A DNA stretch of 64,000 bases from Chitinophaga sp. (GTDB lineage Bacteria > Bacteroidota > Bacteroidia > Chitinophagales > Chitinophagaceae), in the NCBI RefSeq assembly GCF_039596135.1, contig NZ_JBCNKH010000001.1, positions 330,781-394,780 of the forward strand, given 5' to 3'. Positions 15,841 through 57,134 of the stretch are shown here, one piece after another. Made by a program: the position numbers and the translations under genes. How positions within the stretch are numbered: the first letter of the stretch is position 1; each line of letters opens with the position of its first letter. A model generated the notes under the pieces. The model worked only from the letters and a program-made list of their open reading frames with translations. It made no database searches and was not told the DNA's origin.

Positions 15841-15869
15841 TAACATTAACAATCTAACGACAACCAAAA

Positions 15870-17345: not shown

Positions 17346-17463
17346 ACACATAGTCTAGATGTGAATGTGCGTATCTTTTTTCAAACCTGCTGATCGATAC
17401 AAACACACATTAGTAATAAAGATTCTCATAAGCAGGTTTAGATTTTGTTGTAACCTTCAGCCG

Positions 17464-17490
17464 GGCCGGGTCTTTACCCGGCCTTTTCTT
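17464..17490 (+). terminator. intrinsic terminator of gltBD
   Basis: Stem GGCCGGGT/ACCCGGCC with loop CTTT, then TTTTCTTATTTTT. Confidence 0.8.
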
Positions 17491-17503
17491 ATTTTTGTTC
17501 ATC

Positions 17504-18115: not shown

Positions 18116-18136
18116 TTCCACCTATAAATACTCATA

Positions 18137-18171
18137 AAAAGCGCTTTTATCGACGGTAAAAGCGCTTTTTT
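18137..18171 (+). terminator. intrinsic terminator
   Basis: Stem AAAAGCGCTTTTA/TAAAAGCGCTTTT followed by a T-run. Confidence 0.8.
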
Positions 18172-18276
18172 AATTAAACCCCTGCTGTAGGTATAAATTT
18201 TGTTTAATAACTCTATGTTTAAACAAGGGTCCGCCTAATGCGTTTTAACTCAGTATTTTCTATGTAATCCTTTTAA

Positions 18277-23340: not shown

Positions 23341-23341
23341 G

Positions 23342-45300: not shown

Positions 45301-47079
45301 GCATTGCTGAGAGGAAAGCAATTGGTTGTAGTTGGTGATAGCAAACAGATGCCACCAGGCAGTTTCTTTGATTCATTATTGAAAGAAACTGATGACGAAG
45401 AAAATGTAACTGCCGATATGCCAAGTATATTAGGGATGTGTGATGCACAGGGTGCACCACAACGTATGTTGCGCTGGCACTATCGTAGTCGTCATGAATC
45501 ATTGATCACATTATCTAATCAGGAATTTTACGAGAACAAACTGGTGATCTTTCCAAGCCCTGGTGCTACACATCAGATGGGATTGATTTATCATCACCTG
45601 AAAGATACTGTTTACGATCGTGGTAAGACGCGTACCAACCCGCAGGAAGCAAATGCTATTACAGAAGCAGTGATCAGGCATGCAAAAGAACATCCTGATT
45701 TAAGCTTAGGGGTAGTAGCATTTAGTACGGCACAGATGCAGGCGATACAGGAATCGCTGGAAGCAGCGAGAAAGAAACTGCCTGAAGTAGAATCATTCTT
45801 TAAAGCACATCCGCATGAACCATTCTTTGTAAAGAACCTGGAAAATGTACAGGGGGATGAGCGTGATGTTATTTACATCAGTATAGGATATGGCCGTACG
45901 GCAGATGGATCTGTAAGTTTAGCATTTGGTCCTTTGAATAATGAAGGCGGTGAGAAGAGGCTGAATGTATTAATTACGCGTGCAAAACAGAGATGCGAAG
46001 TATTTACGAACCTGACGGCTGATGACATAGATCTGAACCGTACGGATAGTGAAGGTGTGAAAGCGTTGAAGAACTTCCTCTACTTTGCACAGCATGGACA
46101 ATTGTATACATCATCTGCTGATGGATGGCCGGCAAGAATTCCTTTTGAGGAAGAAGTAGCGAAACACTTGCAGGCAGCAGGATATACTGTACATAAACAG
46201 GTGGGTAGTAAAGGCTTCTTTATTGATCTGGCTATTTCTGATCCTGAACATCCGGGTAAATATATTATAGGTATTGTGTGTGATGGTGAGGGGTATAATT
46301 CTGCACGTTCCGCCAGAGACAGAGATCGGTTGAGGCAACAGGTAATGGAAGATATGGGATGGAACTTGTATCATGTATGGAGTACGGATTGGTTCAGGCA
46401 TCCTGCCAGGGAAATTAAGCGATTATTAGCTGCGGTTGAACAGGCAAAAACGAATGAAGTAATTCCGGAACCGGAGCAGGAGGTAGCAGAAGATTTTACT
46501 ATGGTGAGAGAAGATGAAGATATGACGATGCCTGAATTACCATTGTATGAAACTGCCATACTGCCGATGGAAATATCTACGAAAGAATTGCATGCGCATG
46601 GGTTGGATAAACTAAGAAGCTGGTTAGAAAAAATTGTGCAGGTAGAGAGCCCGGTGCATACAGAAGAAGTAGCAAGAAGATTGATTGAGGCGGCAGGTGT
46701 AGCAAGAGTGGGTAGCCGTATACGTGAAACGTTGAAGCAGGCAATATCAAGTGCGGAGGAGAGTGGTAGTATAGTGGTGAAAGAACCATTCCTGTGGGAT
46801 GCAAAAATGGAAGTACCGGTATTGAGGAATAGGGCGAATATGCCTGCGGCATCAAGGAAAGTAATGTATATAGCACCGGAGGAAATGACGGTAGCAATAG
46901 AGAAAGTAGTGAGAGATGCGGTAGCGATTACAGAAGAAGCCGTGATACCGTTAGTGGCGAAGGCATTAGGTTTTACAAGGGCGACGGAAGATTTGAAAAC
47001 GGAATTATCAGGTGCGATAAAACAAGCGATTGAAGCAGGGGTGATACGTGAGGACGATGAATGGCTAAAAATAAATTAA
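42310..47079 (+). CDS. DUF4011-type Upf1-like SF1 helicase fused to a Vsr/DUF559-like PD-(D/E)xK endonuclease and a DUF3320-like C-terminus
   Basis: 1589 aa. N-terminus LLDLGLRNPLLNYR (DUF4011-like). Walker A GPPGTGKS (nt 43360-43383). Motif II DEASQ (45262-45276). VVGDSKQMPP, WHYRSRHESL, VITRAKQR. Nuclease-like FFIDLAISD...IGIVCDGEGYNSARSARDRDRLRQQVMEDMGWNLYHVWSTDWF. Confidence 0.85.
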   Translation: MQESILSKLEASRRELLDLGLRNPLLNYRLPVSRGVHIDQEKSANVYEVLVKQGKAMTFLPKPGNKENKEKAITPEDNTASMLDDPNAFLKEEVLVTPPATDNAELPKEEQKEGSTALPETVVYDTRLQTTEAAAALQNRLLNTYYAARTSLEEQGVNILFLTLGMLQWYEKDNTKEARQAPLILIPVSLERSSARERFRLRYTGSDVEMNLSLQTKIKTDFGIVLPDMPETDEISINDYLQEIADAVYGMPKWEVKMDTVELGFFSFGKLMLYHDLDSENWPADEQPVVHPVLQSLFGAGFSEGESGVSDETFIDTETNAHEMHQVVDADGSQLLAMLAVQEGKNLVIQGPPGTGKSQTITNLIANAIGEGKKVLFVAEKMAALEVVKRRLDSIQLGDACLELHSHKANKKELHQELRRTLELGKPAIMQLQQEVALLHEYRRELNDYCLAVNAPVGKSGLTPQQLMGYLLQLKEAAGDLILPRIPIPDIANWEASNMQRAENMANRITARLGETGMPSALLFWGSQLTILTPSEQEKLIPLMQQTVATIKSLQHESAMIAAQVGMPMPLNKKDTMDLSYVVQMASVRPDLAGVNISNVAWLQRKEDIKELLQTGKRLAQIRQVYDSILIPEAWEQNVLEIRQNLLAYGEKWFKFAIGDYNRSNRQLAALCRNGAPSDVAAKLACVDAIMEAKRLDKQVQDYETLARDLFGQRWQKGFSNWNELETISNYLSDVHRQVNIGSCDKVILSYLEKNEPVAAAKQYLDTLLKYLQQHGTAIEQIVTATAFNEQIRYKEITPLLQRSYEDQIVLLESWIAGLPEIHLMISWNNLATSAINEGLESLIDAVVYWPEAQKGLKPALQKTWYEYLYEQALVKHAALRKFERASHESSVKQFVKLDTLDLQYNRARAALKHWDGIPPLDAGGQVNVLRTEFNKKARHMPIRKLVQVAGLAIQAIKPVFMMSPLSIANFLPPGSLQFDLVIFDEASQVRPVDALGALLRGKQLVVVGDSKQMPPGSFFDSLLKETDDEENVTADMPSILGMCDAQGAPQRMLRWHYRSRHESLITLSNQEFYENKLVIFPSPGATHQMGLIYHHLKDTVYDRGKTRTNPQEANAITEAVIRHAKEHPDLSLGVVAFSTAQMQAIQESLEAARKKLPEVESFFKAHPHEPFFVKNLENVQGDERDVIYISIGYGRTADGSVSLAFGPLNNEGGEKRLNVLITRAKQRCEVFTNLTADDIDLNRTDSEGVKALKNFLYFAQHGQLYTSSADGWPARIPFEEEVAKHLQAAGYTVHKQVGSKGFFIDLAISDPEHPGKYIIGIVCDGEGYNSARSARDRDRLRQQVMEDMGWNLYHVWSTDWFRHPAREIKRLLAAVEQAKTNEVIPEPEQEVAEDFTMVREDEDMTMPELPLYETAILPMEISTKELHAHGLDKLRSWLEKIVQVESPVHTEEVARRLIEAAGVARVGSRIRETLKQAISSAEESGSIVVKEPFLWDAKMEVPVLRNRANMPAASRKVMYIAPEEMTVAIEKVVRDAVAITEEAVIPLVAKALGFTRATEDLKTELSGAIKQAIEAGVIREDDEWLKIN

Positions 47080-47080
47080 C

Positions 47081-47111
47081 AAAAAGGTCCTGCCAGAGGC
47101 AGGACCTTTTT
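47081..47111. terminator. bidirectional terminator shared by the helicase-nuclease gene and the vWA/AAA+ operon
   Basis: AAAAAGGTCCTGCC-AGA-GGCAGGACCTTTTT lies in the 38-nt gap between the two convergent stop codons. Confidence 0.85.
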
Positions 47112-47117
47112 GTTAAT

Positions 47118-48248
47118 TTATTTTTTTAATACAAGATCTTCTCTTGCTGCCCAGGTATTTATATCCTGTTTACTCAACGCGGCTGCCATCATATCGGGAA
47201 ACTTATCCGGCGTACATGCAAATACAGGAATACCCAAATTGGAAAGGAACTGTGCATTGTCATGATCGTAATAAGGTGCACCATCATCATTCAATGCGAG
47301 TAATACAATGACCTGTACACCAGCGGCTACTAATTCGGCAGCGCGCTTACGCATACGATCATTACTACCCCCTTCAAATAAGTCAGTGATTAACACTAAT
47401 ACGGTATCTGTTGGCCTGGTAATAATCTGCTGGCAATAATTTAGTGCTAACTGTATATCTGTGCCACCACCCAACTGTACACCGAATAACAAATCGACCG
47501 GATCTTTCAGTTCTTCTGTCAGATCAGCCACAGATGTGTCGAAGACCACCATCTTTGTTTTGATAGCAGGAATAGATGCCATTACAGAACCGAAAATACC
47601 GGAGTATACAACTGATGTACCCATAGAGCCACTCTGGTCCAGGCAGAGCACGACGTCTTTTAATGAGGTCGTTTTGCGGCCATAGCCAATGCGGGTTTCA
47701 GGAATAATTGTTTTATACTCAGGCTGATAGTGACGCAGGTTTTTTAAGATGGTCGCATGCCAGTTGATTTCATTATGTTTAGGACGACGATTCCTGATAC
47801 TGCGATGTAAGCTACCGGTGATTGCCTGTTGTGTGGGCTGTGTGAGTTTCTTCAATAGTTCTTCCACGACCCTGCGTACTACCTGTCTGGCAGTATCTTT
47901 TGTTTTGTCAGGAATGGCGTGGCGCAATGTTAATAAGGTTGCTACCAAGTGAACATCAGGTTCTACATTTTCCAGCATCTCTTTTTCAAAGAGCATCTGT
48001 GTAATGTTCAATCGCTGCAGTGCATCGCGCTGCATGACCTGCACCACAGAAGCAGGGAAGAATGTACGGATGTCACCGAGCCAACGGCTTACGTTAGGAG
48101 AGGAGGGACCGAGTCCGCCTTTCTTTTCACTATCGTAGAGTGCTTCCAGTGCCTGGTCCATTTTCAATTCGTCGCCAGTGAGATTGAAACCTGTGCCGTC
48201 AGATTCTTTACCACCGAGTACGAGTCGCCATTTATGTAAGTTGTCCAT
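47118..48248 (-). CDS. CoxE-type von Willebrand factor A domain protein (YehP-like)
   Basis: 376 aa. The N-terminal helical region is typical of the VWA_CoxE family. MIDAS motif DQSGS at nt 47639-47625. Start is 4 nt after the upstream stop. Confidence 0.8.
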   Translation of the reverse strand: MDNLHKWRLVLGGKESDGTGFNLTGDELKMDQALEALYDSEKKGGLGPSSPNVSRWLGDIRTFFPASVVQVMQRDALQRLNITQMLFEKEMLENVEPDVHLVATLLTLRHAIPDKTKDTARQVVRRVVEELLKKLTQPTQQAITGSLHRSIRNRRPKHNEINWHATILKNLRHYQPEYKTIIPETRIGYGRKTTSLKDVVLCLDQSGSMGTSVVYSGIFGSVMASIPAIKTKMVVFDTSVADLTEELKDPVDLLFGVQLGGGTDIQLALNYCQQIITRPTDTVLVLITDLFEGGSNDRMRKRAAELVAAGVQVIVLLALNDDGAPYYDHDNAQFLSNLGIPVFACTPDKFPDMMAAALSKQDINTWAAREDLVLKK

Positions 48249-48252
48249 TGAT

Positions 48253-50478
48253 TTAGTTTTTAAAGCCCAGCATTTTCATCACAATCGGAATACCTTTTTC
48301 TGCACGTGTTGCATCAAAATGCACTTCGGCAGTTGTTGATACAGCATTGCCTGTAGTAACACCGCTCTTTGCTTTTTCACCGAGCTTTCTTCTTTCAGGT
48401 TTACTGAATCCTGAAAATGTTCTTCTCAGTAAAGGTAGCAATTGAGTAAATGTATCCTGGTTCAGCTGATTCATCCAGTTGTTTACCACTGTCCACAGAT
48501 CATTGTCTACTAACAATAATGTGCCACTGCCTTTTAAGAAGCCTTCCAGCCATGCTGCAGCTACTGCAGGAGGATTGGCGGTAGACATGGCATAACTGAA
48601 TGCTTTCACCAGCTCTGCACCTGTAATTTGCCTGTGATCAGACAGTAAGCGGGTAGCATATCCACCGATCACGGCGGAGGTGTTATTATTATGAGCGATA
48701 TAAGATAATGTCTGTTGCCATTGTGTGCTAAGATCATCCTGTTGCAATAAGAGAATCGCATCGTTCATGTTGTAGAATAACTCCAGCAATTGTAATGCGG
48801 CATCTTCTGCAATACTTGTACAGGCAGCAGGCAAACTGATGCAGGTGCGGGTGATCATACCGTTAATGATACCTTCTACCAGCGCTGCGTCTGTTTTACG
48901 TACGTTGCCATATCTGCTTATTTGTACCAGGTTTGGTAGTACCGTCATTAGCTGCATGACATCGCCGGTAGCAGCAGCGAGGTTATTGATTTGCTGGATC
49001 AATAAGTCGATAGCAGCATCCAATTCGGCGGGAATAGCGCTTTCCAGTAAGTCGCATACTTCTTTCAGGGTAGTAGCTGATTGTGCCCGATATTTTACAT
49101 AACTGTTGGTTGCCTCTTCTACAGTGTTGCCCCAGCTACCCCGTTCAATGATATCAATGGATAAAGACGGATCCCATTGTAAGCGCCATTGTTCCTTGAA
49201 AGTGCCTTTGCCGGATACATCGTATCGGTCCCCCCATTTGATACCTAGCAATTCCAGGCGGTGCAGGAAGATGCTTCGCTCCAGGTCATTTTCTTTTCTG
49301 AGGTCTAAAGTGTAATCTTTGAAATCGGCGGTCTGTGGTAAGCGCAGTTTCTTTTGCAGCTTTTCAATGTCTGTCTGTAATGGTGGACGAGGTACATCGA
49401 TAGGTACTTCACCAATCTTATCACTGACGATCAATGCTTTTTCAATCAGTTTGACCAGGATGTCTTCCCCATTACACAATACACTCAACGTGGCTTCATT
49501 CAGTTCTTCCAAACCGGGTCTTGGTAAACCACGTAAGGATGCTAATGCAGTTGCCAGACGAACAGCTTCCATCACATGTGCAACAGAAATATCTTTTTGT
49601 TCTTCCCTGAAGAGTCTTGCTACGCGTGCCATCCAGCGGGAGCCATCATCGGTGGGATAGTGCCACAGGTGCTCATACCAACCGGGTGAATTGATGCCTG
49701 CACCATAACCACTGTTGTAACTCAAACGGTTATATGTCCAGGGTACCCACGATACCGCCGTTTTTACTTTGGGCAATCCTTTCAGCAGTTCATTGTCATC
49801 TTTTGCTTTGGGCATGTGCGTGAGTGCTGGTGCATGCCATGCACCACATACTACGGCAATTTCTGTGTACATTTCCTTTTCTGCCTGCCGGATGGTTTTA
49901 CGCATCCAGGCTTCACGCAATTGTTCTTCCCTGTCGTAGGGGAGCGGGAGGTCTGTACGCAGGGCATGCATGCCTTCGGTAATGGCATCGAATACCTGCT
50001 CTTCATCCTGCCGGTATTCAAATTCATGTTCCCACCAGGTTTCTTCTTCTTCAAAACCGGCAGCAGCAGCCAGCCATGCAATAGGATTGCGCCTGAGCGT
50101 TTCTGCATCCGGAATAGCAATGCTATTATTTAAAGAAGAATCAGCAGTAGGTTGATGACGCAGGTCAAACTGATACGCCATTGGCAGATCCATGAATTTA
50201 ACAGGAATCTTATTTTGTCTTGCATATAGTATTGCCTGCCACTCCGGAGAGAATTCCGAGAATGGATAGAACACTGCTTTTTTTGGATCATCGGGTTGGA
50301 ATACGAGAATCGCTACCGGAGGTTTCAATTCATCATGTCCCACCCATTCCAGTATACCATCGGCATCTGGCGGGCCTTCTACCAGCACGATGTCCGGTTT
50401 GATCTTTTCCAGGGCAGCGCGCACTCTCCTGGCAGAGCCGGGACCATGATGCCGTATGCCCAGTATATGAGTTGACAT
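48253..50478 (-). CDS. DUF5682-like protein (YehM-like), function unknown
   Basis: 741 aa. N-terminus MSTHILGIRHHGPGSARRVRAALEKIKPDIVLVEGPPD, as I recall for the DUF5682/YehM family. Start is 9 nt after the AAA+ stop. Confidence 0.7.
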   Translation of the reverse strand: MSTHILGIRHHGPGSARRVRAALEKIKPDIVLVEGPPDADGILEWVGHDELKPPVAILVFQPDDPKKAVFYPFSEFSPEWQAILYARQNKIPVKFMDLPMAYQFDLRHQPTADSSLNNSIAIPDAETLRRNPIAWLAAAAGFEEEETWWEHEFEYRQDEEQVFDAITEGMHALRTDLPLPYDREEQLREAWMRKTIRQAEKEMYTEIAVVCGAWHAPALTHMPKAKDDNELLKGLPKVKTAVSWVPWTYNRLSYNSGYGAGINSPGWYEHLWHYPTDDGSRWMARVARLFREEQKDISVAHVMEAVRLATALASLRGLPRPGLEELNEATLSVLCNGEDILVKLIEKALIVSDKIGEVPIDVPRPPLQTDIEKLQKKLRLPQTADFKDYTLDLRKENDLERSIFLHRLELLGIKWGDRYDVSGKGTFKEQWRLQWDPSLSIDIIERGSWGNTVEEATNSYVKYRAQSATTLKEVCDLLESAIPAELDAAIDLLIQQINNLAAATGDVMQLMTVLPNLVQISRYGNVRKTDAALVEGIINGMITRTCISLPAACTSIAEDAALQLLELFYNMNDAILLLQQDDLSTQWQQTLSYIAHNNNTSAVIGGYATRLLSDHRQITGAELVKAFSYAMSTANPPAVAAAWLEGFLKGSGTLLLVDNDLWTVVNNWMNQLNQDTFTQLLPLLRRTFSGFSKPERRKLGEKAKSGVTTGNAVSTTAEVHFDATRAEKGIPIVMKMLGFKN

Positions 50479-50487
50479 AATATGCGT

Positions 50488-51564
50488 TTACAGGTCCCGG
50501 AATGCCCGGTAAATATCTTTCCACTCGTCTCTTGTTTTGATGACAGTTTCGAGGTATTCCTGCCATACAATTTTATCCTGCACAGGATCTTTGATTACAG
50601 CGCCGATAATACCTGCTGCAAGATCTGCTGCTTTGAGCGCGCCATCCCCAAAGTAAGCCGCCATTGCCAGCCCATTGTTCACTACAGAAATAGCTTCGGC
50701 AGTGCTGAGTGTTCCGCTTGGTACTTTGATCTTGGTCTTGCCATCGGCAGTAATACCGCTACGCAGTTCACGGAAGATGGTAACGATACGACGAATCTCT
50801 GCCAGTGCTGGTTTTTCGGCCGGGAGGTCCATTACTTTTTCATAGCTTTCTACTCTTCTCTTCACGATGTCGATCTCTTCTTCCATATTGTCAGGAACAG
50901 GAAGAATAACGGTATTAAAACGGCGTTTTAAGGCGCTGGAAAGGTCGTTTACACCTTTGTCCCTGTTATTGGCTGTGGCGATGATATTAAAGCCTTTTTG
51001 GGCCATTATTGCTGTGTTCAGCTCAGGGATAGGGAGTGTTTTTTCAGAGAGGATGGTGATGAGTGTATCCTGTACATCTGCACCGATACGGGTCAGCTCT
51101 TCAATACGGGCGATCTTACCATCTTTCATAGCGCGCATCACGGGTGTTTCCACGATAGCGCCTGTGGTAGGACCTTCTGCCAGCAGGCGGGCATAGTTCC
51201 AGCCATAACGGATGGCTTCTTCACCGGTACCGGCAGTACCCTGTACGATCATGGTAGAATCACCGCTAATAGCTGCTGCAAGATGTTCGCTCACCCAGCT
51301 TTTGGCAGTACCTGGCAAACCGTAGAGCAACAATGCCCGGTCGGTAGTAAGGGTTGCTACGGCGATTTCCATGAGACGGCGGTTACCAATGTATTTAGGT
51401 TGTACTTCAAATCCATTTTTCAGGGTACCACCAATGAGGTAAGTAACAACAGCTTGTGGAGATAGTTTCCACATATAAGGACGCTTTTCAGTATCCTGCT
51501 TTTGCAGTTCTTCCAGTTCCTGTGCGAACAGCTGTTCCGCGTGTTGACGTAAAATGTTGGACAT
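50488..51564 (-). CDS. MoxR/AAA_5-type AAA+ ATPase (YehL-like)
   Basis: 358 aa. Walker A GLPGTAKS (nt 51321-51298), Walker B-like KIARIEE, ATANNRD and ALKRRF. Confidence 0.85.
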   Translation of the reverse strand: MSNILRQHAEQLFAQELEELQKQDTEKRPYMWKLSPQAVVTYLIGGTLKNGFEVQPKYIGNRRLMEIAVATLTTDRALLLYGLPGTAKSWVSEHLAAAISGDSTMIVQGTAGTGEEAIRYGWNYARLLAEGPTTGAIVETPVMRAMKDGKIARIEELTRIGADVQDTLITILSEKTLPIPELNTAIMAQKGFNIIATANNRDKGVNDLSSALKRRFNTVILPVPDNMEEEIDIVKRRVESYEKVMDLPAEKPALAEIRRIVTIFRELRSGITADGKTKIKVPSGTLSTAEAISVVNNGLAMAAYFGDGALKAADLAAGIIGAVIKDPVQDKIVWQEYLETVIKTRDEWKDIYRAFRDL

Positions 51565-51587
51565 TTTTTATCTGCTTAAAAAGGTGA

Positions 51588-53063
51588 TCATTTTGTATTC
51601 AAGAAAGCTTTATTGATCGCTGCTTTGCAGGTCAATAATCTTTTGATATGTTCTGAGGTATTCTTCCAGGTGGCCTGGTAGGCGGGTAGTTCAGGGGTAA
51701 AGCTTTCCAGTTCGCCTGCGATTAACAAGGGTATATTCTGTACCTGCTTGTCAAAGAAGTTGCGGTTGTACTGGTAAGGGTTTTTAGCAATCCATTTGAA
51801 CAGTTCCCTGGTAATGGGCAGGCCCCATTCATAATCGCGTTCGCTGAGAAAGCGGATCATGAATTGTGGTTCTTTTTCAAAGTATTTGAGCGCATAAGCT
51901 TCCTGTTCGTGAACGGGTAATGCCTCCAGCGCATCTTTGAAAAACTCTTTACTTTCTTTCAGGATCAGCTGTAGCCATTCCAGGTCTTTGAAGCGGATAG
52001 CTGCTAAACCTAATGCCTGCATGAAATGCTGTGTGATCTCTGTATTATTAAAATAAGAGAGTACGCCTTTTTTATCAGTGTCCAGGTAGTTTTCCCACCA
52101 GGCAGGAGGTACATAAGTCGTGAGCTGAAAGAGAATGAAAGCATCGTCGCTCACACTTTTGGAACTACTTAATAATTGAATACCGGAATCAGCAATCCGT
52201 TTATCAGAAGGGAGTTGCAATGAGATGTCCAGCGACTTTTTATTCAGCAATCCTTTTTTAGTAGGGGTGATGCTTTGTTGTAATAACTGCCAGTAAGCCT
52301 GGATGATAGAAGACGTGGGCAATTGTTTGAGCAATGTCCAGGTTTCGTCTTTTACTTTTGAGCTTTTGTCAGTGAGCAGTGTTTCCAGCCAGGGCACATC
52401 TTCTTCGCCGGCATTGATTTGCAACACTTTCAGGAGTTCGGCACGGGTGGCAGCGTTTTCCTGTGACCATGTTTGCTGCAGCCATTCCCTGGCTTGTGCG
52501 GGGTTTTCCTGTCTTATAGTAGACAGTACCTGTTTGCGATCTTCCAGTGATCCTGTCTGCCAGTGATCTTCGTTGGTATCTGCTTTTTTGAATGCCCAGG
52601 CAGGATTGAGTTGCCCCAGCCATTCACCTCTTTTACCACAAACGGTGACAGTCAGACTTCTCCATTGTTTTTCCCTGATAGACATATCCATCAGGATAGG
52701 AATGAATTCAGGTGGCGCCAGTTGTTGTGCTGCTGCGCAGGCTTCCATCCAATAGAGGATCAGTGCCTGCAGACCCATGTCGATGGCAGTGTATAATGCC
52801 TGCCATGCAGCAGCACTGCAATAGGGCAGTACTTCGGCAGGTGCAGCTTCGAGGGTGACGCTACTGTCCTGCAGGGCAGTGACGCCGCTCTGGCGATAGT
52901 TGAGCGCAATAGCGGCAAGGTGCAGAAACTGTGTTTCCACATCCAGCGATTTATCTCCCAATACGGTATCAGCTACAGCAGATAATGCAGGGGGGAGATC
53001 GTCTTTGCGCAGTTGTTTTTTGCCTGTACCTAACAGGACGGTGTTAACAATATTATTCCACAT
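51588..53063 (-). CDS. DUF5691-like all-helical protein, function unknown
   Basis: 491 aa from ATG 53063 (MWNNIVNTVLLGTGKK). The track start at 53114 would overlap the SWIM gene by 35 nt. Helical-repeat-like composition. Always next to the SWIM protein in this cluster type (recall). Confidence 0.65.
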   Translation of the reverse strand: MWNNIVNTVLLGTGKKQLRKDDLPPALSAVADTVLGDKSLDVETQFLHLAAIALNYRQSGVTALQDSSVTLEAAPAEVLPYCSAAAWQALYTAIDMGLQALILYWMEACAAAQQLAPPEFIPILMDMSIREKQWRSLTVTVCGKRGEWLGQLNPAWAFKKADTNEDHWQTGSLEDRKQVLSTIRQENPAQAREWLQQTWSQENAATRAELLKVLQINAGEEDVPWLETLLTDKSSKVKDETWTLLKQLPTSSIIQAYWQLLQQSITPTKKGLLNKKSLDISLQLPSDKRIADSGIQLLSSSKSVSDDAFILFQLTTYVPPAWWENYLDTDKKGVLSYFNNTEITQHFMQALGLAAIRFKDLEWLQLILKESKEFFKDALEALPVHEQEAYALKYFEKEPQFMIRFLSERDYEWGLPITRELFKWIAKNPYQYNRNFFDKQVQNIPLLIAGELESFTPELPAYQATWKNTSEHIKRLLTCKAAINKAFLNTK

Positions 53064-53079
53064 AAGTTTTGTCCCGCGA

Positions 53080-54375
53080 TTACAATAGTTTATAAGAGCC
53101 GTTGTGCCATGCACCTAAAGGTTCGTATTGTTGTTCTTTGCCCAGCAGCGCCATGTTCAGCGGTTGACCGCCGCTGAGGGCGAGTAGCTTCCAGATGTTT
53201 GCATAGCCGGTTTTCAGTGGCATCAGTCTTTCTTCCTGGTCTTTGAGCCACCATTGCAAATTGTGTTGTACAGGGGTTAGTTGCTGTACAATGTAAGGTC
53301 GCTCGCTGCGCACAGGCATCAGTTCGAACAGTGAAGTTTCTGTATCTGTGACCTGTGTCCAGCCTTGCATACCTGTTACTTCAGGCAGGGAGATGTTGGA
53401 GACAGGATATTTAATGATAGCTCTGAGTGGCGTAGGTGAAGGGAAGTAGACCAGTTCGCCCAGTAGTGCAATACCCGGTGTAATCAATACTTCGGGCCGG
53501 GTCTGGTTCTTGACATAAAATTGTAGTACCAGGGCAGACCGCTGACTATGCTGACCATAGAGCCAGTAGCGCTCTGTGACCAGGTTTTCTTCTTCATTGA
53601 TCTGTTTACTGAGTACCAGCCAGGTATCTTTGATGCCTGTTTGTTGCTTGAGGGCTTCCTGGTTCTGGGTAAAGCCGATTAACGTGCGGAGTTCCTGTTG
53701 TAGCGGTTCATTCAAACCAGCACTTTGGGTATACCCCTGTACTACAAGATAGATGCGTAGCAGCTGATCGAGAAAGGCATTCTGCCAGCCTTCGCTATAG
53801 AAGTTCGTTTCGCCAAGGGCGCGTACCATTCCGGCAAGACCGGATGCCTGTGCATCGACCATTCTCCTGGCCATATTTTCCCAGTAAGCGTCTCCTTTTT
53901 CAGGGATCTGCAGCAGTCCATTGCGAACAATGTCTTTCATCCAGAGCATGAGTTCTGTGATACCATCAGCTACTTTTTGCTGGCGTGCCTGTAGTCTTTT
54001 GGCCTGTGCATTTTCGTCTACGGGTTTATCAGTTTTTTCTACTTTCTTTTCAGCCCGTTTGGATAGCCATTCACTCACCCATGCAGGAGGGGTATTGTCT
54101 GTGAAGGTATCTTTTTGCCGGGCATACAGGAGCATGAGTCCAATACCGTGTTTGCAGGGGAATTTACGACTGGGGCAGCTGCATTTGAAGGCTACGTTTA
54201 CGATGTCTACCTGGGTTTGATACGGCTTGCTGCCGCTACCCTGGCATTCCCCCCATAAGGCGTCGGTGTTGGCGCCTTTGCTTACCCATTTTCCCGGACT
54301 TGCCAATGCGGATCCCGCTTTTCGGGAAGCGTCGTCCGGGGCTAAACCTATTACATGTTCTTCTGTCAGGAGCAA
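53080..54375 (-). CDS. SWIM zinc finger domain protein (YehQ-like)
   Basis: 431 aa. SWIM CxCxnCxH = C65-S-C67-PSRKFP-C74-K-H76 (nt 54183-54148). Apparent TTG start with no in-frame ATG nearby. Begins 16 nt after the upstream membrane-protein gene. Confidence 0.75.
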   Translation of the reverse strand: MLLTEEHVIGLAPDDASRKAGSALASPGKWVSKGANTDALWGECQGSGSKPYQTQVDIVNVAFKCSCPSRKFPCKHGIGLMLLYARQKDTFTDNTPPAWVSEWLSKRAEKKVEKTDKPVDENAQAKRLQARQQKVADGITELMLWMKDIVRNGLLQIPEKGDAYWENMARRMVDAQASGLAGMVRALGETNFYSEGWQNAFLDQLLRIYLVVQGYTQSAGLNEPLQQELRTLIGFTQNQEALKQQTGIKDTWLVLSKQINEEENLVTERYWLYGQHSQRSALVLQFYVKNQTRPEVLITPGIALLGELVYFPSPTPLRAIIKYPVSNISLPEVTGMQGWTQVTDTETSLFELMPVRSERPYIVQQLTPVQHNLQWWLKDQEERLMPLKTGYANIWKLLALSGGQPLNMALLGKEQQYEPLGAWHNGSYKLL

Positions 54376-54391
54376 TGGAGTAGATATTTAA

Positions 54392-54730
54392 TTATACAAA
54401 GATGAATGAATACAGCCGGACGTAAATCATGACGATGTACGCCAGCAGGATGACTGCGTTCAATACCAGCAGCCAGTTGTAATCAATGACGGAGTATTTC
54501 TTTTTGATCACAAGAATGATCAGGGTAAGCAGACCTACAAAGAGCAGGGCAGGAGCAATCAGGGTTAGTTTATTTGGGATGACGAAGTGTGCATTTTCCA
54601 GTCTTTTGCTCCACGGTTGTTCGCCGGTGATAAAAGGGAGTGCGCCTACAAATACGATGATGACAAATAAACGGATAGCCGATTTTGCTGCGATTTTGCT
54701 GATCTTAAGAGCCCTTGTTTCCTTTTCCAT
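54392..54730 (-). CDS. small integral membrane protein (3 predicted TM helices)
   Basis: 112-aa ORF with three long hydrophobic segments. Packed between two same-strand genes with gaps of 20 and 16 nt. Confidence 0.55.
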   Translation of the reverse strand: MEKETRALKISKIAAKSAIRLFVIIVFVGALPFITGEQPWSKRLENAHFVIPNKLTLIAPALLFVGLLTLIILVIKKKYSVIDYNWLLVLNAVILLAYIVMIYVRLYSFIFV

Positions 54731-54750
54731 GATTGATTAATTAGTGGTCA

Positions 54751-55665
54751 CTAAGTTCGGGATTTAGTATTTAAAATCAATAGCCAATGGATAAGCGTTC
54801 CTGCGAATAGGCTCAGTACGCTGAGAAGGGTCATCCATGTATTTTCTTCGGCAAAGCCGCCAATGAATAGCCAGCAGAAAAAGTAGATGTGGAACCATGC
54901 GGGCACCAGCCAGGTGATAAAGGGTAGTTTGAACGGTTGTCGTTTCATTTTAATGATCTCAATTGCGGTTAGTATTGCAAAGAAAAGGAGGGTAAATACC
55001 AACTTATCTGCGCTCAGAATATTAAAATGATTTTTTAGAAAAAAAGATATGGGAAAAAGGGTAACATATAAGGCGACTTGTGAAATAAGGATGGCGAATA
55101 TTGGAATGGCTATTTTCCAGGTGCGGGTCTTTTCGAGATAGCGGGAAAAGAGGGAATAGAAGAATACGACACATAACCAGCCGTAGAAATTACCCCAGGG
55201 TACACCGAAGTATTGAGCGGTAAGGGCAACGGATGGATTGATGATGGTTTCCCAGTTCCAATGCCACATGTGCAGGCGGTAGGCCACTACATCCATGCTC
55301 CAGTCAATGTTCAGGGCGAGCAGTGCTTCCATAGCGGCGGCGGGCCAGATGCGCATGTTCATACTTTCGGTGATCAGGCGGGAGGTGTACATGATGATGC
55401 CCCAGCCGGCGCCGATGCCTACCGGGATGTCACCGATCATGAGGAGGAAGTGACCGTATCTGTAACCGGCATTGGCTCTTACATTTATATATTCCAGGAG
55501 GAGGCCGAAACCAAGCCCGCCGAGGAGGTAAGCGAGTTTGGAGATGCCTTGTTTACAGGCGTGGTACAGGCATAATAAAAAGAGGATGTACATGCAGATT
55601 TCGGTAAGGGGATAGCAGATGGCGGGGGGATAGCCGTAAGGCATATCGGCAAATGGACGATTCAT
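54751..55665 (-). CDS. polytopic membrane protein, possibly DUF422/carotenoid-biosynthesis-associated family
   Basis: 305 aa from ATG 55665 (MNRPFADMPYG), with about 8 hydrophobic helices. The segment AGYRYGHFLLMIGDIPVGIGAGWGIIMY recalls the DUF422 family. The track extension to 55797 is created by a tandem repeat. Confidence 0.55.
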   Translation of the reverse strand: MNRPFADMPYGYPPAICYPLTEICMYILFLLCLYHACKQGISKLAYLLGGLGFGLLLEYINVRANAGYRYGHFLLMIGDIPVGIGAGWGIIMYTSRLITESMNMRIWPAAAMEALLALNIDWSMDVVAYRLHMWHWNWETIINPSVALTAQYFGVPWGNFYGWLCVVFFYSLFSRYLEKTRTWKIAIPIFAILISQVALYVTLFPISFFLKNHFNILSADKLVFTLLFFAILTAIEIIKMKRQPFKLPFITWLVPAWFHIYFFCWLFIGGFAEENTWMTLLSVLSLFAGTLIHWLLILNTKSRT

Positions 55666-55707
55666 TATAGTAGATTTTGATTGGCCTGCGGCAGCAAGGA
55701 AGAACCA

Positions 55708-55842
55708 TTTTTTTAGGCAGACGCCTGATGTGAGATTTTCTTTGGCAGCAGCGAGGATTTTTTTTAGGTTAATGCCTGTGGCAAGTTTTCTATGCAACAG
55801 GGAGGAAAATCTTTTTTAGGTTAATGCCTGAATTGAGATTCC
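55708..55842. repeat. about 2.6 copies of a 50-54-bp tandem repeat overlapping the 3' end of the MFS gene
   Basis: TTTTTTTAGGCAGACGCCTGATGTGAGATTTTC, TTTTTTTTAGGTTAATGCCTGTGGCAAGTTTTC and TTTTTTAGGTTAATGCCTGAATTGAGATTCC. The third copy encodes the MFS C-terminus and stop codon. Confidence 0.75.
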
Positions 55843-57134
55843 TCTTTATTCATATAAGAAGTCTGCCTGGTATCGCGCAGGAACACATATACTACCAGGG
55901 AAATGAACACACAGATCGTCACATACCAATAATACCAGGGTTCATGCCCAATTTTTTTACAATACAGTGCAATGTATTCCGCAGTGCCGCCAAAGATAGC
56001 GACCGTCAGTGCATAAGGTAAGCCTACACCTAATGCCCGTACCTGCGAAGGGAATAATTCTGCTTTCACCACTGCATTGATAGAAGTATATCCACTTACT
56101 ATCAGCAGGGCTGTCAATAATAAAAGGAATGCAGCCGTCTCCGAGCTGGCATGACTCACCGCAGTGAGGATAGGTACTGTAAATAAGGTACCTGCTACCC
56201 CAAATGTTATCAATAAAGGTTTCCTTCCTATTTTATCACTCAGCAGGCCACAGAGTGGTTGTATGCAGGCGTAAATAAGCATGAGCCAGAAGGTGAGTAC
56301 AGTTGACCTTTCTTTGGTAAGGTGTACTGTATTCACCAGGAACTTTTGCATATAAGTAGTGTAGGTATAAAATGCCAATGTACCACCCATTGTCAATCCC
56401 ACTACAGTCAGAATTGCTCTTGGATGTTCATTAAACAGTACTTTCAGTGAACCGCGTTTTACATCATCTTTCTTTACGGAGATGGTTTCCTCCATATGGC
56501 GGCGGATGATTAGTGCAAAAAGGGAGAGGAGTGCGCCGATTACAAATGGTATACGCCATCCCCAGGTATGCAGTTGATCGGGAGTAAGAAATACTTTTTG
56601 CAATACTAATTGTACTCCCAGTGCGATGAGTTGTCCACCGATGAGGGTTACATATTGAAAGCTGGAATAAAAGCCTCTTTTATCGGGGGTAGATATTTCA
56701 CTCAGGTAGGTAGCAGAAGTTCCATATTCCCCACCCACGCTCAGGCCTTGTAATAACCGTGCCAGCAATAATAATACAGGGGAAAACAAACCAGCAGTCT
56801 GATACGTAGGAGCGACGGCAATCATGAGGCTACCCAGTGACATGAGTAATACAGACAATGTCATAGCCGTTTTGCGGCCTGTACGATCAGCTATAGTTCC
56901 AAAGAGCCAACCACCTACCGGGCGCATGAGAAAACCAACGGCAAAGATGGCTGCAGTATCCAGTAGCTGAGCAGTAGGATTCCCTTTGGGAAAAAAGGAA
57001 GGAGCAAAGTAAATTGCAAATGCAGCATAGGCATACCAGTCGTACCATTCTACGAGGTTGCCAATGGAACCGGTGAAGATAGCCCTGATACGAAGCAGTG
57101 TAGTCATTGATCCCTTGTGCGAGTCGATATTCAT
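55821..57134 (-). CDS. MFS transporter, metabolite:H+ symporter family (ProP/KgtP-like)
   Basis: 437 aa and 12 TM helices. NLVEWYDWYAYA near the N terminus and the loop 2-3 motif GGWLFGTIADRTGRK. Confidence 0.85.
   Translation of the reverse strand: MNIDSHKGSMTTLLRIRAIFTGSIGNLVEWYDWYAYAAFAIYFAPSFFPKGNPTAQLLDTAAIFAVGFLMRPVGGWLFGTIADRTGRKTAMTLSVLLMSLGSLMIAVAPTYQTAGLFSPVLLLLARLLQGLSVGGEYGTSATYLSEISTPDKRGFYSSFQYVTLIGGQLIALGVQLVLQKVFLTPDQLHTWGWRIPFVIGALLSLFALIIRRHMEETISVKKDDVKRGSLKVLFNEHPRAILTVVGLTMGGTLAFYTYTTYMQKFLVNTVHLTKERSTVLTFWLMLIYACIQPLCGLLSDKIGRKPLLITFGVAGTLFTVPILTAVSHASSETAAFLLLLTALLIVSGYTSINAVVKAELFPSQVRALGVGLPYALTVAIFGGTAEYIALYCKKIGHEPWYYWYVTICVFISLVVYVFLRDTRQTSYMNKEESQFRH

What the first reader, a model, noticed from the sequence alone, without database searches (positions are those of the whole stretch)
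47118..54375. Five-gene SWIM / DUF5691-like / MoxR AAA+ / DUF5682-like / CoxE-vWA operon of unknown function (yehLMPQ-like)
Seen in the sequence: five same-strand ORFs sit with gaps of 16, 23, 9 and 4 nt, which suggests translational coupling.
- A 431-aa protein with an N-terminal SWIM finger (FKCSCPSRKFPCKH) and an apparent TTG start.
- A roughly 491-aa all-helical protein.
- A 358-aa MoxR/AAA_5-type ATPase with Walker A GLPGTAKS, an unusual Walker B-like KIARIEE (Glu-Glu instead of Asp-Glu), and ALKRRF.
- A 741-aa protein beginning ILGIRHHGPGSARRV...PDIVLVEGPPD.
- A 376-aa CoxE-type vWA protein with MIDAS motif DQSGS.

Established knowledge: MoxR AAA+ and vWA pairs act as ATP-driven remodelling or cofactor-insertion modules (RavA-ViaA, CbbQ-CbbO, NorQ-NorD, CoxD-CoxE). 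MoxR-vWA cores also recur in computationally predicted NTP-dependent conflict systems. From memory, the sizes and order of the last three genes match the uncharacterised E. coli K-12 yehL/yehM/yehP genes, with yehQ as the SWIM partner. The two largest components are known only as DUFs.

Inference: this is a multi-subunit ATP-dependent machine with no assigned biology. It sits back-to-back with a helicase-nuclease of defence-type architecture, which makes an anti-phage or anti-mobile-DNA role a testable hypothesis. A housekeeping chaperone role is the main alternative.
Basis: partly seen in the sequence, partly recalled or inferred. Interest (0 to 1): 0.85.

Follow-up and report, generated by a model that had tools for sequence, protein, structure and literature searches.

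The report
YehL-type MoxR–VWA five-gene machine
This is an intact copy of a widespread but never-studied five-protein ATP-driven machine (relatives are the E. coli yehL/yehM/yehP genes); its largest protein appears to carry a TraB/Tiki-type hydrolase domain, and its gene neighbourhoods do not support the suggested anti-phage role.

Summary
Five minus-strand ORFs lie at the stated coordinates, with gaps of 16, 23, 9 and 4 nt. Their Pfam assignments are exactly as predicted: SWIM, DUF5691, AAA_5/MoxR, DUF5682 and VWA_CoxE.

The host is a Chitinophaga, and the locus lies in core chromosome. The cassette is a known but uncharacterised kind:
- YehL is a named MoxR subfamily.
- The AAA, DUF5682 and VWA proteins are 38, 29 and 35% identical to E. 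coli YehL, YehM and YehP.
- In 54 of 66 evaluable loci from 13 phyla, the five genes are colinear.
- All catalytic motifs are invariant, including the "unusual" Glu-Glu Walker B (72 of 72).

New here: the first 250 residues of DUF5682 model as a TraB/Tiki/ChaN/Ere-fold domain with invariant His, Glu and Arg motifs. A DUF4132 (YehI-like) protein is a recurrent optional sixth gene.

The defence idea is not supported by context:
- No component hits PADLOC.
- Among 237 immediate neighbours in 47 loci, credible defence genes are rare.
- The ProA helicase is adjacent only in the closest relatives.
- yehLMPQ is present in 5353 of 5426 E. coli genomes.

Best reading: an ATP- and MIDAS-gated cytoplasmic hydrolase complex whose target is unknown. 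It is a new member of a known kind, of moderate interest.

The parts
53080..54375 (-). SWIM-finger protein, 431 aa, TTG start. The finger CSCPSRKFPCKH is at 54148-54183. It is followed by about 340 residues with no family match.
   Evidence: ORF. Pfam SWIM: 21.8 bits against a cut-off of 19.6. C-x-C...C-x-H is invariant in 60 of 60 homologues. A 431-aa gene call is made on an identical public contig. No solved relative was found.
51588..53063 (-). DUF5691 protein, 491 aa. It is all-helical and HEAT-like, and it is the fastest-evolving component.
   Evidence: Pfam DUF5691 8e-92, plus a weak HEAT_2 match. Median identity between phyla is 23%. It is fused to the SWIM protein in a single 994-aa ORF in a Planctomycetota genome (L076).
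50488..51564 (-). YehL-subfamily MoxR AAA+ ATPase, 358 aa. Walker A is at 51298-51321. The Glu-Glu Walker B is at 51097-51102.
   Evidence: Pfam AAA_5 1.3e-35. 38% identical to E. coli YehL, E 1e-76. Walker A Lys, Glu-Glu, sensor-1 Asn and Arg-Arg-Phe are each invariant in 72 of 72. The closest solved relatives are Midasin (1.5e-13) and NorQ (3.6e-4).
48253..50478 (-). DUF5682 / YehM-like protein, 741 aa. It has an N-terminal alpha/beta domain, followed by about 490 residues of helical repeats.
   Evidence: Pfam DUF5682 4e-275. 29% identical to YehM over 518 residues. The AlphaFold model has pLDDT 84.5. The full-length fold search gives only weak ARM/HEAT matches.
49729..50478 (-). N-terminal domain of DUF5682 (residues 1-250), a putative TraB/Tiki/ChaN/Ere-fold hydrolase. 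Motifs: GIRHH at 50446-50460, Glu34 at 50377-50379, REAWM at 49903-49917 and GAWH at 49834-49845.
   Evidence: Domain model pLDDT 80.8. The best BFVD match is a 'TraB family protein' at E 5.8e-6. PDB matches: Tetrahymena complex IV subunit 5e-4, EreC 0.011, ChaN 0.085. Four motifs occur in the same order and spacing as in the E. coli TraB-family protein YbaP. R9, H10, H11, E34, E79, D97, E154, R188, E189 and H215 are invariant in 44 diverse sequences that include YehM.
47118..48248 (-). CoxE-type VWA protein, 376 aa. The MIDAS motif DQSGS is at 47625-47639. The N-terminal ~190 residues match no family.
   Evidence: Pfam VWA_CoxE 1.6e-44. 35% identical to YehP, E 4e-78. MIDAS Asp, Ser and Ser are invariant in 69 of 69, Thr in 68 of 69 and the final Asp in 69 of 69.
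47073..47119 (.). Bidirectional intrinsic terminator. It closes both the cassette and the convergent ProA gene.
   Evidence: A perfect 20-bp stem with T runs on both strands.

Best explanation
The locus is a complete 'type A' member of the YehL-subfamily MoxR/VWA cassette. Its order is SWIM protein, DUF5691, YehL-like AAA+, YehM-like DUF5682, YehP-like CoxE-VWA. It is a self-contained, horizontally exchanged operon of five soluble cytoplasmic proteins.

Proposed mechanism, with shown and inferred steps marked:
1. The MoxR ATPase and the MIDAS-bearing VWA protein form the usual motor-and-adaptor pair. Inferred from family knowledge; all catalytic motifs are intact, which is shown.
2. Their co-encoded partner is DUF5682. 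Its N-terminal 250 residues are a TraB/Tiki/ChaN/Ere-type hydrolase domain. The fold and motifs are shown at moderate strength; the activity is inferred. ATP hydrolysis remodels or gates this enzyme, or loads its metal. Inferred.
3. The SWIM protein and the HEAT-like DUF5691 act as the recognition and scaffold module. They are fused in one lineage and are the most variable parts. Inferred.
4. The output is hydrolytic, probably proteolytic, processing of a specific intracellular target that is not yet known. Inferred.

The biological role is unresolved. The genomic evidence fits a conditionally used maintenance or stress module better than a defence-island system.
For: Identity of the cassette:
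- Pfam assignments.
- Homology to YehL, YehM and YehP.
- YehL is one of the named MoxR subfamilies (PMC3893208).

A unit under selection:
- 55 of 66 evaluable loci have all five genes, and 54 are colinear.
- They come from 13 phyla.
- Walker A, Glu-Glu, sensor 1, Arg-Arg-Phe, MIDAS and the SWIM ligands are all invariant.
- There is a natural SWIM+DUF5691 fusion.

Hydrolase domain:
- Confident models.
- Best viral-library match is a TraB family protein at E 5.8e-6, probability 1.0.
- PDB matches to EreC, ChaN and BcR135, and to a Tetrahymena complex IV subunit. That complex is reported to contain a TraB-family subunit (PMC10060162).
- Four motifs are shared with YbaP in order and spacing. His-to-Glu is 24 residues here and 26 in YbaP. 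Glu-to-Arg is 154 and 161. Arg-to-His is 27 and 24.
- These residues are invariant across the family.

Cytoplasmic and soluble: no hydrophobic segment or signal peptide in any of the five proteins.

Not island-like:
- Neighbours are heterogeneous metabolic genes.
- Credible defence hits among neighbours are rare.
- E. coli yehLMPQ occurs in 5353 of 5426 genomes as a single chromosomal copy.
- There is essentially no presence in phages.
Against: - The TraB assignment is not significant at the sequence level. Pfam gives no hit on the isolated domain, and hhalign against YbaP gives E 0.48.
- TM-scores are only 0.3-0.48.
- Histidine phosphatases (Sts-1, PGM) also appear among the weak matches, and the RHH motif could be read that way.
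- Not all members of the superfamily are enzymes; ChaN binds haem.
- No interaction, ATPase activity, hydrolase activity or substrate is shown.
- The patchy distribution, inter-phylum transfer (13 of 76 nearest neighbours lie in another phylum) and a fast-evolving component are also what a conflict system would show.
- Some genomes carry DUF5682 alone.
Confidence: 0.45

Rival explanations
1. This is an anti-phage or anti-mobile-DNA (conflict) system. The SWIM/DUF5691 module senses an invader. The MoxR-VWA pair sets an ATP-dependent threshold. DUF5682 is the effector, for example a protease that arrests the cell.
For: - In this genome the cassette lies next to an HMM-confirmed anti-phage helicase-nuclease, ProA / PDC-S37.
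- In Niastella it lies next to a MoxR-vWA-beta-propeller ternary system, bpX0-3.
- It has a patchy, horizontally exchanged distribution, biased to large-genome and multicellular lineages such as Cyanobacteria, Chloroflexota, Planctomycetota, Chitinophagaceae, Streptomyces and Myxococcota.
- DUF5691 diverges fast, at 23% median identity.
- In E. coli the operon is silenced by H-NS (PMC3686432).
Against: - No component matches any PADLOC v2 or NCBIfam defence model above noise.
- The 237 flanking genes of 47 loci yield one ProA, one MkoA-like helicase and one kinase. The remaining hits are generic: histidine kinases scoring as 'mad3' and SufS scoring as SspA/DndA.
- ProA adjacency is confined to close relatives.
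- The operon is present in 98.7% of E. coli genomes at one locus.
- The motor and adaptor are unusually conserved for a conflict system: 72% and 62% median identity between phyla.
- There is no nuclease, TIR, SIR2, pore-forming or other classic effector domain.
- The paper that defines MoxR-vWA conflict systems does not mention SWIM, TraB, yeh or DUF4132.
Confidence: 0.2
2. This is a classical MoxR-VWA maturation chaperone that inserts or repairs a metal or Fe-S cofactor in a client enzyme encoded elsewhere. DUF5682, SWIM and DUF5691 act as non-catalytic adaptors or metal carriers.
For: - Every characterised MoxR-VWA pair works this way: NorQ-NorD, CoxD-CoxE, CbbQ-CbbO and RavA-ViaA (family knowledge; PMC9976466 and PMC3893208 listed).
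- The VWA protein is of the CoxE type.
- NorQ is among the closest solved relatives.
- The complete suf operon lies directly upstream on the same strand in two Chitinophaga genomes. Suf genes, a cysteine desulfurase or SufE lie within 10 kb in three further lineages.
- ChaN, a member of the TraB superfamily, is a cofactor-binding protein.
- The operon is core in E. coli.
Against: - Suf adjacency occurs in only 5 of about 77 loci (4 lineages), and no other candidate client recurs.
- The invariant His/Glu/Arg constellation in DUF5682 looks catalytic.
- Characterised systems usually sit beside their client, whereas this cassette travels alone.
Confidence: 0.2
3. This is a nucleic-acid or ribonucleoprotein remodelling machine, in effect a 'split midasin'. 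The AAA_5 ring and the MIDAS domain pull a factor off DNA, RNA or ribosomes. SWIM, and in the E. coli type WGR/DUF4132, provide nucleic-acid recognition.
For: - Midasin is the closest solved relative of the ATPase, at 1.5e-13.
- SWIM fingers occur in DNA-handling proteins (family knowledge).
- The E. coli cluster is preceded by a WGR protein (YehF) and by DUF4132 proteins (YehH/YehI).
- YehI-like proteins are embedded in or appended to the cassette in 9 loci.
- A Streptomyces version carries a 1639-aa protein annotated as 'DNA-binding protein'.
Against: - No nucleic-acid-binding or nuclease domain was detected in any of the five window proteins.
- The Midasin similarity is generic to AAA_5.
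- There is no DUF4132 or WGR gene in this 64-kb window.
Confidence: 0.1

Closest known systems
E. coli K-12 yehL-yehM-yehP-yehQ, with yehF/yehH/yehI upstream. This is the YehL subfamily of MoxR AAA+ ATPases.
   Same: - The core triad AAA_5, DUF5682, VWA_CoxE is colinear.
- Identities are 38, 29 and 35%.
- The invariant motifs are the same, including the Glu-Glu Walker B.
- A SWIM-finger protein is part of the operon.
- The function is unknown in both.
   Different: - The gene order differs. Here SWIM and DUF5691 come first; in E. coli SWIM comes last.
- There is no DUF5691 in E. coli, where a DUF4132 protein (YehI) precedes the triad. B. mycoides p322 has the same layout.
- YehQ is 614 aa with two SWIM matches, and is alignable only over the finger.
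- DUF5691 and the DUF4132 proteins are not detectably homologous.
Characterised MoxR-VWA pairs: NorQ-NorD, CoxD-CoxE, CbbQ-CbbO and RavA-ViaA
   Same: An AAA+ MoxR motor is paired with a MIDAS-containing VWA adaptor. The VWA protein is of the CoxE type. NorQ is a detectable relative at 3.6e-4.
   Different: Those pairs sit next to, or act on, a known client enzyme. Here three additional conserved proteins travel with the pair, and no external client is evident.
TraB/PrgY/GumN, Tiki, ChaN and erythromycin-esterase superfamily
   Same: The N-terminal domain of DUF5682 matches this fold in two independent libraries. It carries the G-x-x-H, Glu, R-x-x-x-M and G-A-x-H motifs in the same order and spacing as E. 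coli YbaP.
   Different: - There is no significant sequence-profile match.
- The domain is cytoplasmic, whereas from my own knowledge most characterised members are membrane-bound or extracytoplasmic.
- It is fused to about 490 residues of helical repeats.
- It is embedded in an AAA+/VWA operon.
MoxR-vWA ternary conflict systems (Kaur, Burroughs, Iyer and Aravind 2020, eLife; PMC7159879)
   Same: Both have a MoxR and CoxE-like vWA core plus extra components. Both occur in similar large-genome lineages. One such system lies next to the cassette in Niastella.
   Different: - The ATPase scores below the bpMoxR cut-off: 21.6 bits against 27.
- There is no VMAP, iSTAND, beta-propeller or effector-associated domain.
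- The paper does not mention SWIM, TraB, yeh or DUF4132.
Midasin / Rea1
   Same: It combines AAA_5 modules with a MIDAS domain and long helical linkers. It is the best solved match of the ATPase.
   Different: Midasin is a single eukaryotic polypeptide of about 4900 aa with six AAA modules. Here the parts are separate proteins, and a hydrolase-like domain is added.

Membership tests
YehL-type MoxR/VWA cassette (yehLMPQ-like) | AAA_5 MoxR ATPase homologous to YehL, with the subfamily's R-x-E-E-L-T-R Walker B | tested here: met
   38% identity, E 1e-76. Glu-Glu is invariant in 72 of 72 sequences, including YehL.
YehL-type MoxR/VWA cassette (yehLMPQ-like) | DUF5682 (YehM) gene immediately downstream of the ATPase gene | tested here: met
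   Pfam 4e-275. 29% identical to YehM. The gap is 9 nt.
YehL-type MoxR/VWA cassette (yehLMPQ-like) | CoxE-type VWA protein (YehP) with an intact MIDAS, immediately downstream | tested here: met
   Pfam 1.6e-44. 35% identical to YehP. The MIDAS residues are invariant.
YehL-type MoxR/VWA cassette (yehLMPQ-like) | SWIM-finger protein in the same operon | tested here: met
   Pfam SWIM above its cut-off. The zinc ligands are invariant in 60 of 60. Orthology to YehQ beyond the finger is not shown.
YehL-type MoxR/VWA cassette (yehLMPQ-like) | Conserved colinear same-strand arrangement across genomes | tested here: met
   54 of 66 evaluable loci. The annotated Rhizobium plasmid copy has the same five genes.
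MoxR-VWA chaperone pairs | Intact Walker A and B, sensor 1 and Arg finger in the ATPase, and an intact MIDAS in the VWA partner | tested here: met
MoxR-VWA chaperone pairs | ATPase activity, physical AAA+-VWA interaction and a defined client | not testable with these tools
   This needs biochemistry. No recurrent external client gene was found.
TraB/Tiki/ChaN/Ere superfamily (N-domain of DUF5682) | Shared alpha/beta fold | tested here: met
   - BFVD TraB family protein: E 5.8e-6, probability 1.0, TM 0.39 (query) and 0.48 (target).
- PDB: 7w5z_E 5e-4, EreC 0.011, ChaN 0.085, BcR135 about 1.
- Strength is moderate. TM-scores are low, and histidine phosphatases also appear among the weak matches.
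TraB/Tiki/ChaN/Ere superfamily (N-domain of DUF5682) | Motifs G-x-x-H, Glu after strand 2, R-x-x-x-M helix and G-A-x-H after the last core strand, in that order | tested here: met
   Read directly against E. coli YbaP, with matching spacing. The residues are invariant in the family.
TraB/Tiki/ChaN/Ere superfamily (N-domain of DUF5682) | Statistically significant sequence or profile similarity | tested here: not met
   Pfam scan of residues 1-278 gives no TraB or ChaN hit at E<=1. hhalign against YbaP gives E 0.48. The PDB profile search finds nothing.
TraB/Tiki/ChaN/Ere superfamily (N-domain of DUF5682) | Hydrolase (peptidase or esterase) or cofactor-binding activity | not testable with these tools
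   This needs an enzyme assay.
Known anti-phage defence systems | A component matches a model of a described or candidate defence system | tested here: not met
   PADLOC v2 gives only noise-level hits (IetA 3e-4 over 34 residues, PDC-M34B 0.0035). NCBIfam gives none.
Known anti-phage defence systems | Enrichment next to defence genes across genomes | tested here: not met
   237 immediate neighbours of 47 loci give about 3 credible hits. The flanks are metabolic. This is a crude test: there was no genome-wide background, and the PADLOC version dates from 2023.
Known anti-phage defence systems | Protection in phage or plasmid challenge | not testable with these tools
   Experimental.
MoxR-vWA ternary conflict systems (Kaur et al. 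2020) | bpMoxR-type ATPase plus a VMAP, iSTAND or beta-propeller third component with effector domains | tested here: not met
   bpMoxR scores 21.6 bits, below the cut-off of 27. None of those domains is present in the cassette. The paper does not mention the accessory families seen here.

The most novel reading that the evidence does not exclude
The cassette is a new class of ATP-gated cytoplasmic protease machine. A MoxR/VWA motor licenses a TraB/Tiki-type protease (DUF5682/YehM) once a SWIM/HEAT sensor has bound its ligand. The machine is used as an abortive-infection or conflict system, or alternatively as a regulated proteolytic switch. This would be a mechanism unlike any described defence or proteolysis system, and one also present in nearly every E. 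coli.
Probability: 0.15. Interest if true: 0.8.

Novelty: new member of a known kind. Interest (0 to 1): 0.5.

Why it matters
This cassette is one of the larger conserved multi-protein systems in bacteria that still has no function.
- DUF5682 has 4276 clusters at 50% identity in public data.
- The five-gene cassette was found in 13 phyla among the 80 genome loci kept.
- A version of it is in 98.7% of complete E. coli genomes.

It contains one of the MoxR subfamilies for which I found no experimental study. The work here gives concrete handles for experiments:
- A probable catalytic domain, with named invariant residues: His10, His11, Glu34, Arg188, Glu189 and His215 of DUF5682.
- A defined minimal gene set.
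- Two architectural types, and an optional DUF4132 partner.
- A weak but testable link to suf genes.

It also warns against reading a defence role from one adjacent helicase. The particular Chitinophaga copy in this window is an ordinary member of the family.

Tried and rejected
- **Sequence and profile searches of the PDB.** DUF5682, the SWIM protein, DUF5691 and the VWA protein gave nothing usable.
- **Full-length fold search of DUF5682.** It returned only weak helical-repeat matches, because the C-terminal repeats dominate. Re-predicting the N-domain alone was needed.
- **hhalign of the DUF5682 family against E. coli YbaP.** Not significant, E 0.48. YbaP did not retrieve the Tetrahymena chain from the PDB by sequence, so I could not confirm that 7w5z_E is the TraB-family subunit mentioned in PMC10060162.
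- **DUF5691 as a homologue of YehQ, YehI or the DUF4132 proteins.** Rejected.
- **The upstream MFS, 348-aa and 112-aa membrane genes as part of the system.** Rejected as conserved parts, because they recur only in close Chitinophaga.
- **Plasmid and phage carriage.** The E. coli 'plasmid' hits are chromosome-sized or hybrid records. The single phage hit is an UNVERIFIED faecal metagenome scaffold. The PHROG hits to DUF5682 and VWA are high-numbered families of unknown function, probably prophage-boundary artefacts.
- **Literature.** No paper in the library mentions DUF5682, DUF5691 or yehLMPQ as a system. No paper on ProA was found.
- **Promoter scan.** Uninformative for a Bacteroidota genome.

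Full report
**1. The observation**

ORF listing and translation show five minus-strand genes at the stated coordinates:

| Gene | Coordinates | Length |
|---|---|---|
| SWIM protein | 54375..53080 | 431 aa, TTG start |
| DUF5691 | 53063..51588 | 491 aa, ATG start |
| AAA+ | 51564..50488 | 358 aa |
| DUF5682 | 50478..48253 | 741 aa |
| VWA | 48248..47118 | 376 aa |

- The gaps are 16, 23, 9 and 4 nt.
- An independent gene call on an identical public contig gives the same five products, including the 491-aa start for DUF5691.
- Pfam returns exactly the predicted families: SWIM 21.8 bits (cut-off 19.6), DUF5691 8e-92, AAA_5 1.3e-35, DUF5682 4e-275 and VWA_CoxE 1.6e-44.
- All quoted motifs were read back from the DNA.
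- The cassette ends at a perfect 20-bp bidirectional terminator (47073-47119). It shares this terminator with the convergent 1589-aa helicase gene.
- Upstream, an MFS transporter gene and two small membrane-protein genes continue the tight same-strand spacing with no terminator between them. They may be co-transcribed with the cassette.

**2. Where it sits**

- The DUF5682 protein is identical to a 'Chitinophaga sp.' protein and 94% identical to that of C. sancti.
- The 64-kb window is ordinary core chromosome. It holds gltBD, TamB/Omp85-type genes, corA, a SurA-like PPIase, mnmG, cardiolipin synthase, rpiA and tRNA-Phe.
- There is no integrase, no transposase and no marked compositional break.

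**3. What it is**

The AAA+, DUF5682 and VWA proteins are clear homologues of E. coli K-12 YehL, YehM and YehP. Identities are 38, 29 and 35%, with E 1e-76, 4e-41 and 4e-78, and the genes lie in the same order. YehL is one of the named subfamilies of MoxR AAA+ ATPases (PMC3893208, PMC11432383). I found no functional study. No paper in the library mentions DUF5682 or DUF5691.

YehQ shares only the SWIM-finger region with the window's SWIM protein. E. coli has no DUF5691. Instead a WGR protein (YehF) and DUF4132 proteins (YehH, a pseudogene, and YehI) precede yehL.

**4. Census**

- DUF5682 has 4276 clusters at 50% identity with E<=1e-3.
I analysed the 80 best loci.
- Of 66 loci with enough flanking DNA, 55 carry all five genes, and 54 have them in the order SWIM, DUF5691, AAA, DUF5682, VWA on one strand.
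- The loci come from Bacteroidota, Cyanobacteriota, Chloroflexota, Acidobacteriota, Planctomycetota, Verrucomicrobiota, Pseudomonadota, Deinococcota, Actinomycetota, Bacillota, Armatimonadota, Desulfobacterota and Myxococcota.
- An annotated Rhizobium megaplasmid shows the same five genes.
- A second architecture (DUF4132, AAA, DUF5682, VWA, SWIM) is seen in E. coli and in Bacillus mycoides p322. A Streptomyces variant has a 1257-aa DUF5682.
- A YehI-like DUF4132 protein of about 980 aa occurs in 9 type-A loci. It lies directly after the VWA gene, or inside the cassette between AAA and DUF5682 or between DUF5682 and VWA. It is therefore a recurrent optional sixth component. The window has none.
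- In one Planctomycetota genome the SWIM protein and DUF5691 are fused in a single 994-aa ORF.
- Five loci have DUF5682 alone.

**5. Selection and spread**

Every catalytic signature is invariant across 60-72 homologues:
- Walker A Lys.
- The R-x-E-E-L-T-R Walker B. The Glu-Glu is a subfamily hallmark shared with YehL.
- Sensor-1 Asn and Arg-Arg-Phe.
- MIDAS D-x-S-G-S, Thr and Asp.
- The SWIM C-x-C...C-x-H ligands.

Median identity between phyla falls steadily along the components:

| Component | Median identity between phyla |
|---|---|
| AAA | 72% |
| VWA | 62% |
| DUF5682 | 46% |
| SWIM | 37% |
| DUF5691 | 23% |

Within-phylum medians are barely higher, and 13 of 76 nearest neighbours lie in another phylum. 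The cassette is therefore exchanged horizontally as a unit. The motor and adaptor are extremely constrained, and the SWIM/DUF5691 pair is variable.

**6. The largest protein**

- A 76-sequence alignment gave a confident AlphaFold model of DUF5682, with pLDDT 84.5. It has an alpha/beta domain (residues 1-250) followed by helical repeats.
- The full-length fold search was dominated by the repeats, so I re-predicted the N-domain alone. That model has pLDDT 80.8.
- Its best match in the viral structure library is a 'TraB family protein' at E 5.8e-6, probability 1.0.
- In the PDB the top matches are a Tetrahymena complex IV subunit (5e-4), erythromycin esterase EreC (0.011), ChaN (0.085) and BcR135. 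Tetrahymena complex IV is reported to include a TraB-family subunit (PMC10060162). From my own knowledge, these proteins belong to the Tiki/TraB/ChaN/Ere superfamily.
- Read directly against the E. coli TraB-family protein YbaP, four motifs line up in order and spacing. These residues are invariant in 44 diverse family members that include YehM.

| Motif | E. coli YbaP | DUF5682 (window) |
|---|---|---|
| 1 | LIGSIHMGS | ILGIRHHGPGS |
| 2 | ALIVEADV | IVLVEGPPD |
| 3 | QRNLAWRDKLR | LREAWMRKTIR |
| 4 | VVAVGALH | AVVCGAWH |

Caveats:
- There is no significant sequence-profile match.
- TM-scores are 0.3-0.48.
- Histidine phosphatases also appear among the weak matches.

All five proteins lack hydrophobic segments and signal peptides. 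This would therefore be a cytoplasmic TraB/Tiki-type domain.

**7. The defence hypothesis**

- The neighbouring helicase really is of a named anti-phage family: NCBIfam ProA equivalog at 1574.6 bits (cut-off 1500), and PADLOC PDC-S37 at 2053 bits.
- However, it is a separate, convergent transcription unit.
- The adjacency recurs only in C. tropicalis, where the whole region is syntenic.
- None of the five proteins matches a PADLOC or NCBIfam defence model above noise.
- No neighbour family occurs in more than 9 of about 80 loci.
- I scanned the three genes on either side of the cassette in 47 loci, 237 proteins in all. The PADLOC hits at E<=1e-10 were one ProA, one MkoA-like helicase and one PD-T4-6-like kinase.
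- The remaining hits are generic. 'mad3' corresponds to histidine kinases, 'SspA/DndA' to SufS, 'DrmC' to cardiolipin synthase and 'QatD' to TatD.
- Pfam shows more than 150 different, mostly metabolic, families in each batch.
- In E. coli the operon is present in 5353 of 5426 complete genomes as a single chromosomal copy. It is derepressed in hns/stpA mutants (PMC3686432).
- Phage carriage is essentially nil, and plasmid carriage is mostly on megaplasmids.

My test is crude: it used no genome-wide background and a 2023 database. The patchy, horizontally mobile distribution and the adjacency to a MoxR-vWA-beta-propeller system in Niastella keep defence alive as a minority reading.

**8. A lead in the other direction**

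- In C. niastensis and a related MAG, the complete suf operon (sufB, C, D, S, E and an FeS_assembly_P gene) lies directly upstream on the same strand.
- Suf genes, a cysteine desulfurase or SufE lie within 10 kb in Flectobacillus, Mailhella and Pedosphaera.
- That is five loci in four lineages, against my rough chance expectation of about one. This is suggestive only.
- It fits the established cofactor-insertion role of MoxR-VWA pairs.

**9. Verdict**

The locus is an intact, ordinary member of the YehL-type MoxR/VWA cassette. This is a known but functionally blank kind of system.

I commit to the following mechanism, at about 0.45:
- An AAA+ motor and a MIDAS adaptor gate or mature the TraB/Tiki-like hydrolase DUF5682.
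- SWIM and DUF5691 (or DUF4132) act as the recognition and scaffold module.
- The complex acts on an unknown cytoplasmic target.

The rivals are defence (about 0.2), a cofactor chaperone for an external client (about 0.2) and nucleic-acid or RNP remodelling (about 0.1). The identity of the cassette itself is near certain.

Noticed in passing
window 42310-47079 (+): A 1589-aa helicase-nuclease with DUF4011, AAA_11, AAA_12, MTES_1575 and DUF3320 domains. It passes the NCBIfam equivalog 'anti-phage protein ProA' (1574.6 bits, cut-off 1500) and matches PADLOC PDC-S37 and Hhe. It is convergent with the cassette, and adjacent to it only in this genome and in C. tropicalis.
   Followed up: partly
window 47073-47119: A perfect 20-bp-stem hairpin flanked by T runs on both strands. 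It is a bidirectional terminator shared by the VWA gene and the ProA gene.
   Followed up: yes
window 54392-57134 (-): An MFS transporter (437 aa), a 348-aa polytopic membrane protein (weak Caroten_synth match) and a 112-aa membrane protein lie on the same strand, with gaps of 16-23 nt and no terminator before the SWIM gene. They may be co-transcribed with the cassette. They are conserved only in close Chitinophaga.
   Followed up: partly
L010:114-5796 and L008 (Chitinophaga); also L043, L073, L004: The complete suf Fe-S assembly operon lies directly upstream of the cassette on the same strand in two genomes. Suf genes, a cysteine desulfurase or SufE lie within 10 kb in three other lineages. 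This is more than I would expect by chance, but the numbers are small.
   Followed up: partly
L008, L010, L011, L015, L018, L043, L069, L070 (remnant in L006); E. coli L002:10280-13912; B. mycoides L091:3391-6825: A DUF4132 (YehI-like) protein of about 980-1200 aa is a recurrent extra partner. It is appended after the VWA gene, inserted inside the cassette, or placed before the ATPase gene in the E. coli/Bacillus architecture.
   Followed up: yes
L076:5628-8612: A natural fusion of the SWIM protein and DUF5691 in a single 994-aa ORF in a Planctomycetota MAG.
   Followed up: partly
L003, L039, L056, L071, L072, L079: DUF5682 genes with none of the four partners within 10 kb (Nostocaceae, Leptolyngbyaceae, Saprospiraceae and others). 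In L003 the neighbours include an AAA ATPase, an SLFN_AlbA_2 protein and a MerR regulator. This is unexplained.
   Followed up: no
L006:1-5956 (Niastella vici): A MoxR-vWA-beta-propeller ternary system (bpMoxR, BpX2, bpX0/1, bpX3) lies immediately upstream of the cassette on the same strand.
   Followed up: no
E. coli yehP (L002:17968-19104): A 2009 study reported a functional +1 ribosomal frameshift site in yehP (PMC2790909). I did not check whether the site is conserved in the Chitinophaga VWA gene.
   Followed up: no
L016 (QFQQ01000029.1): A contig labelled 'MAG: Citrobacter freundii' carries a cassette 62% identical to the Chitinophaga one and groups with Bacteroidota. It is probably a mis-binned contig.
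   Followed up: no
window 11284-25639: Core genes: glutamate synthase large and small subunits (11284-17345), and a TamB-like (1687 aa) / Omp85-like (796 aa) pair (18277-25639). The higher G+C here (0.49-0.51) reflects these genes.
   Followed up: partly
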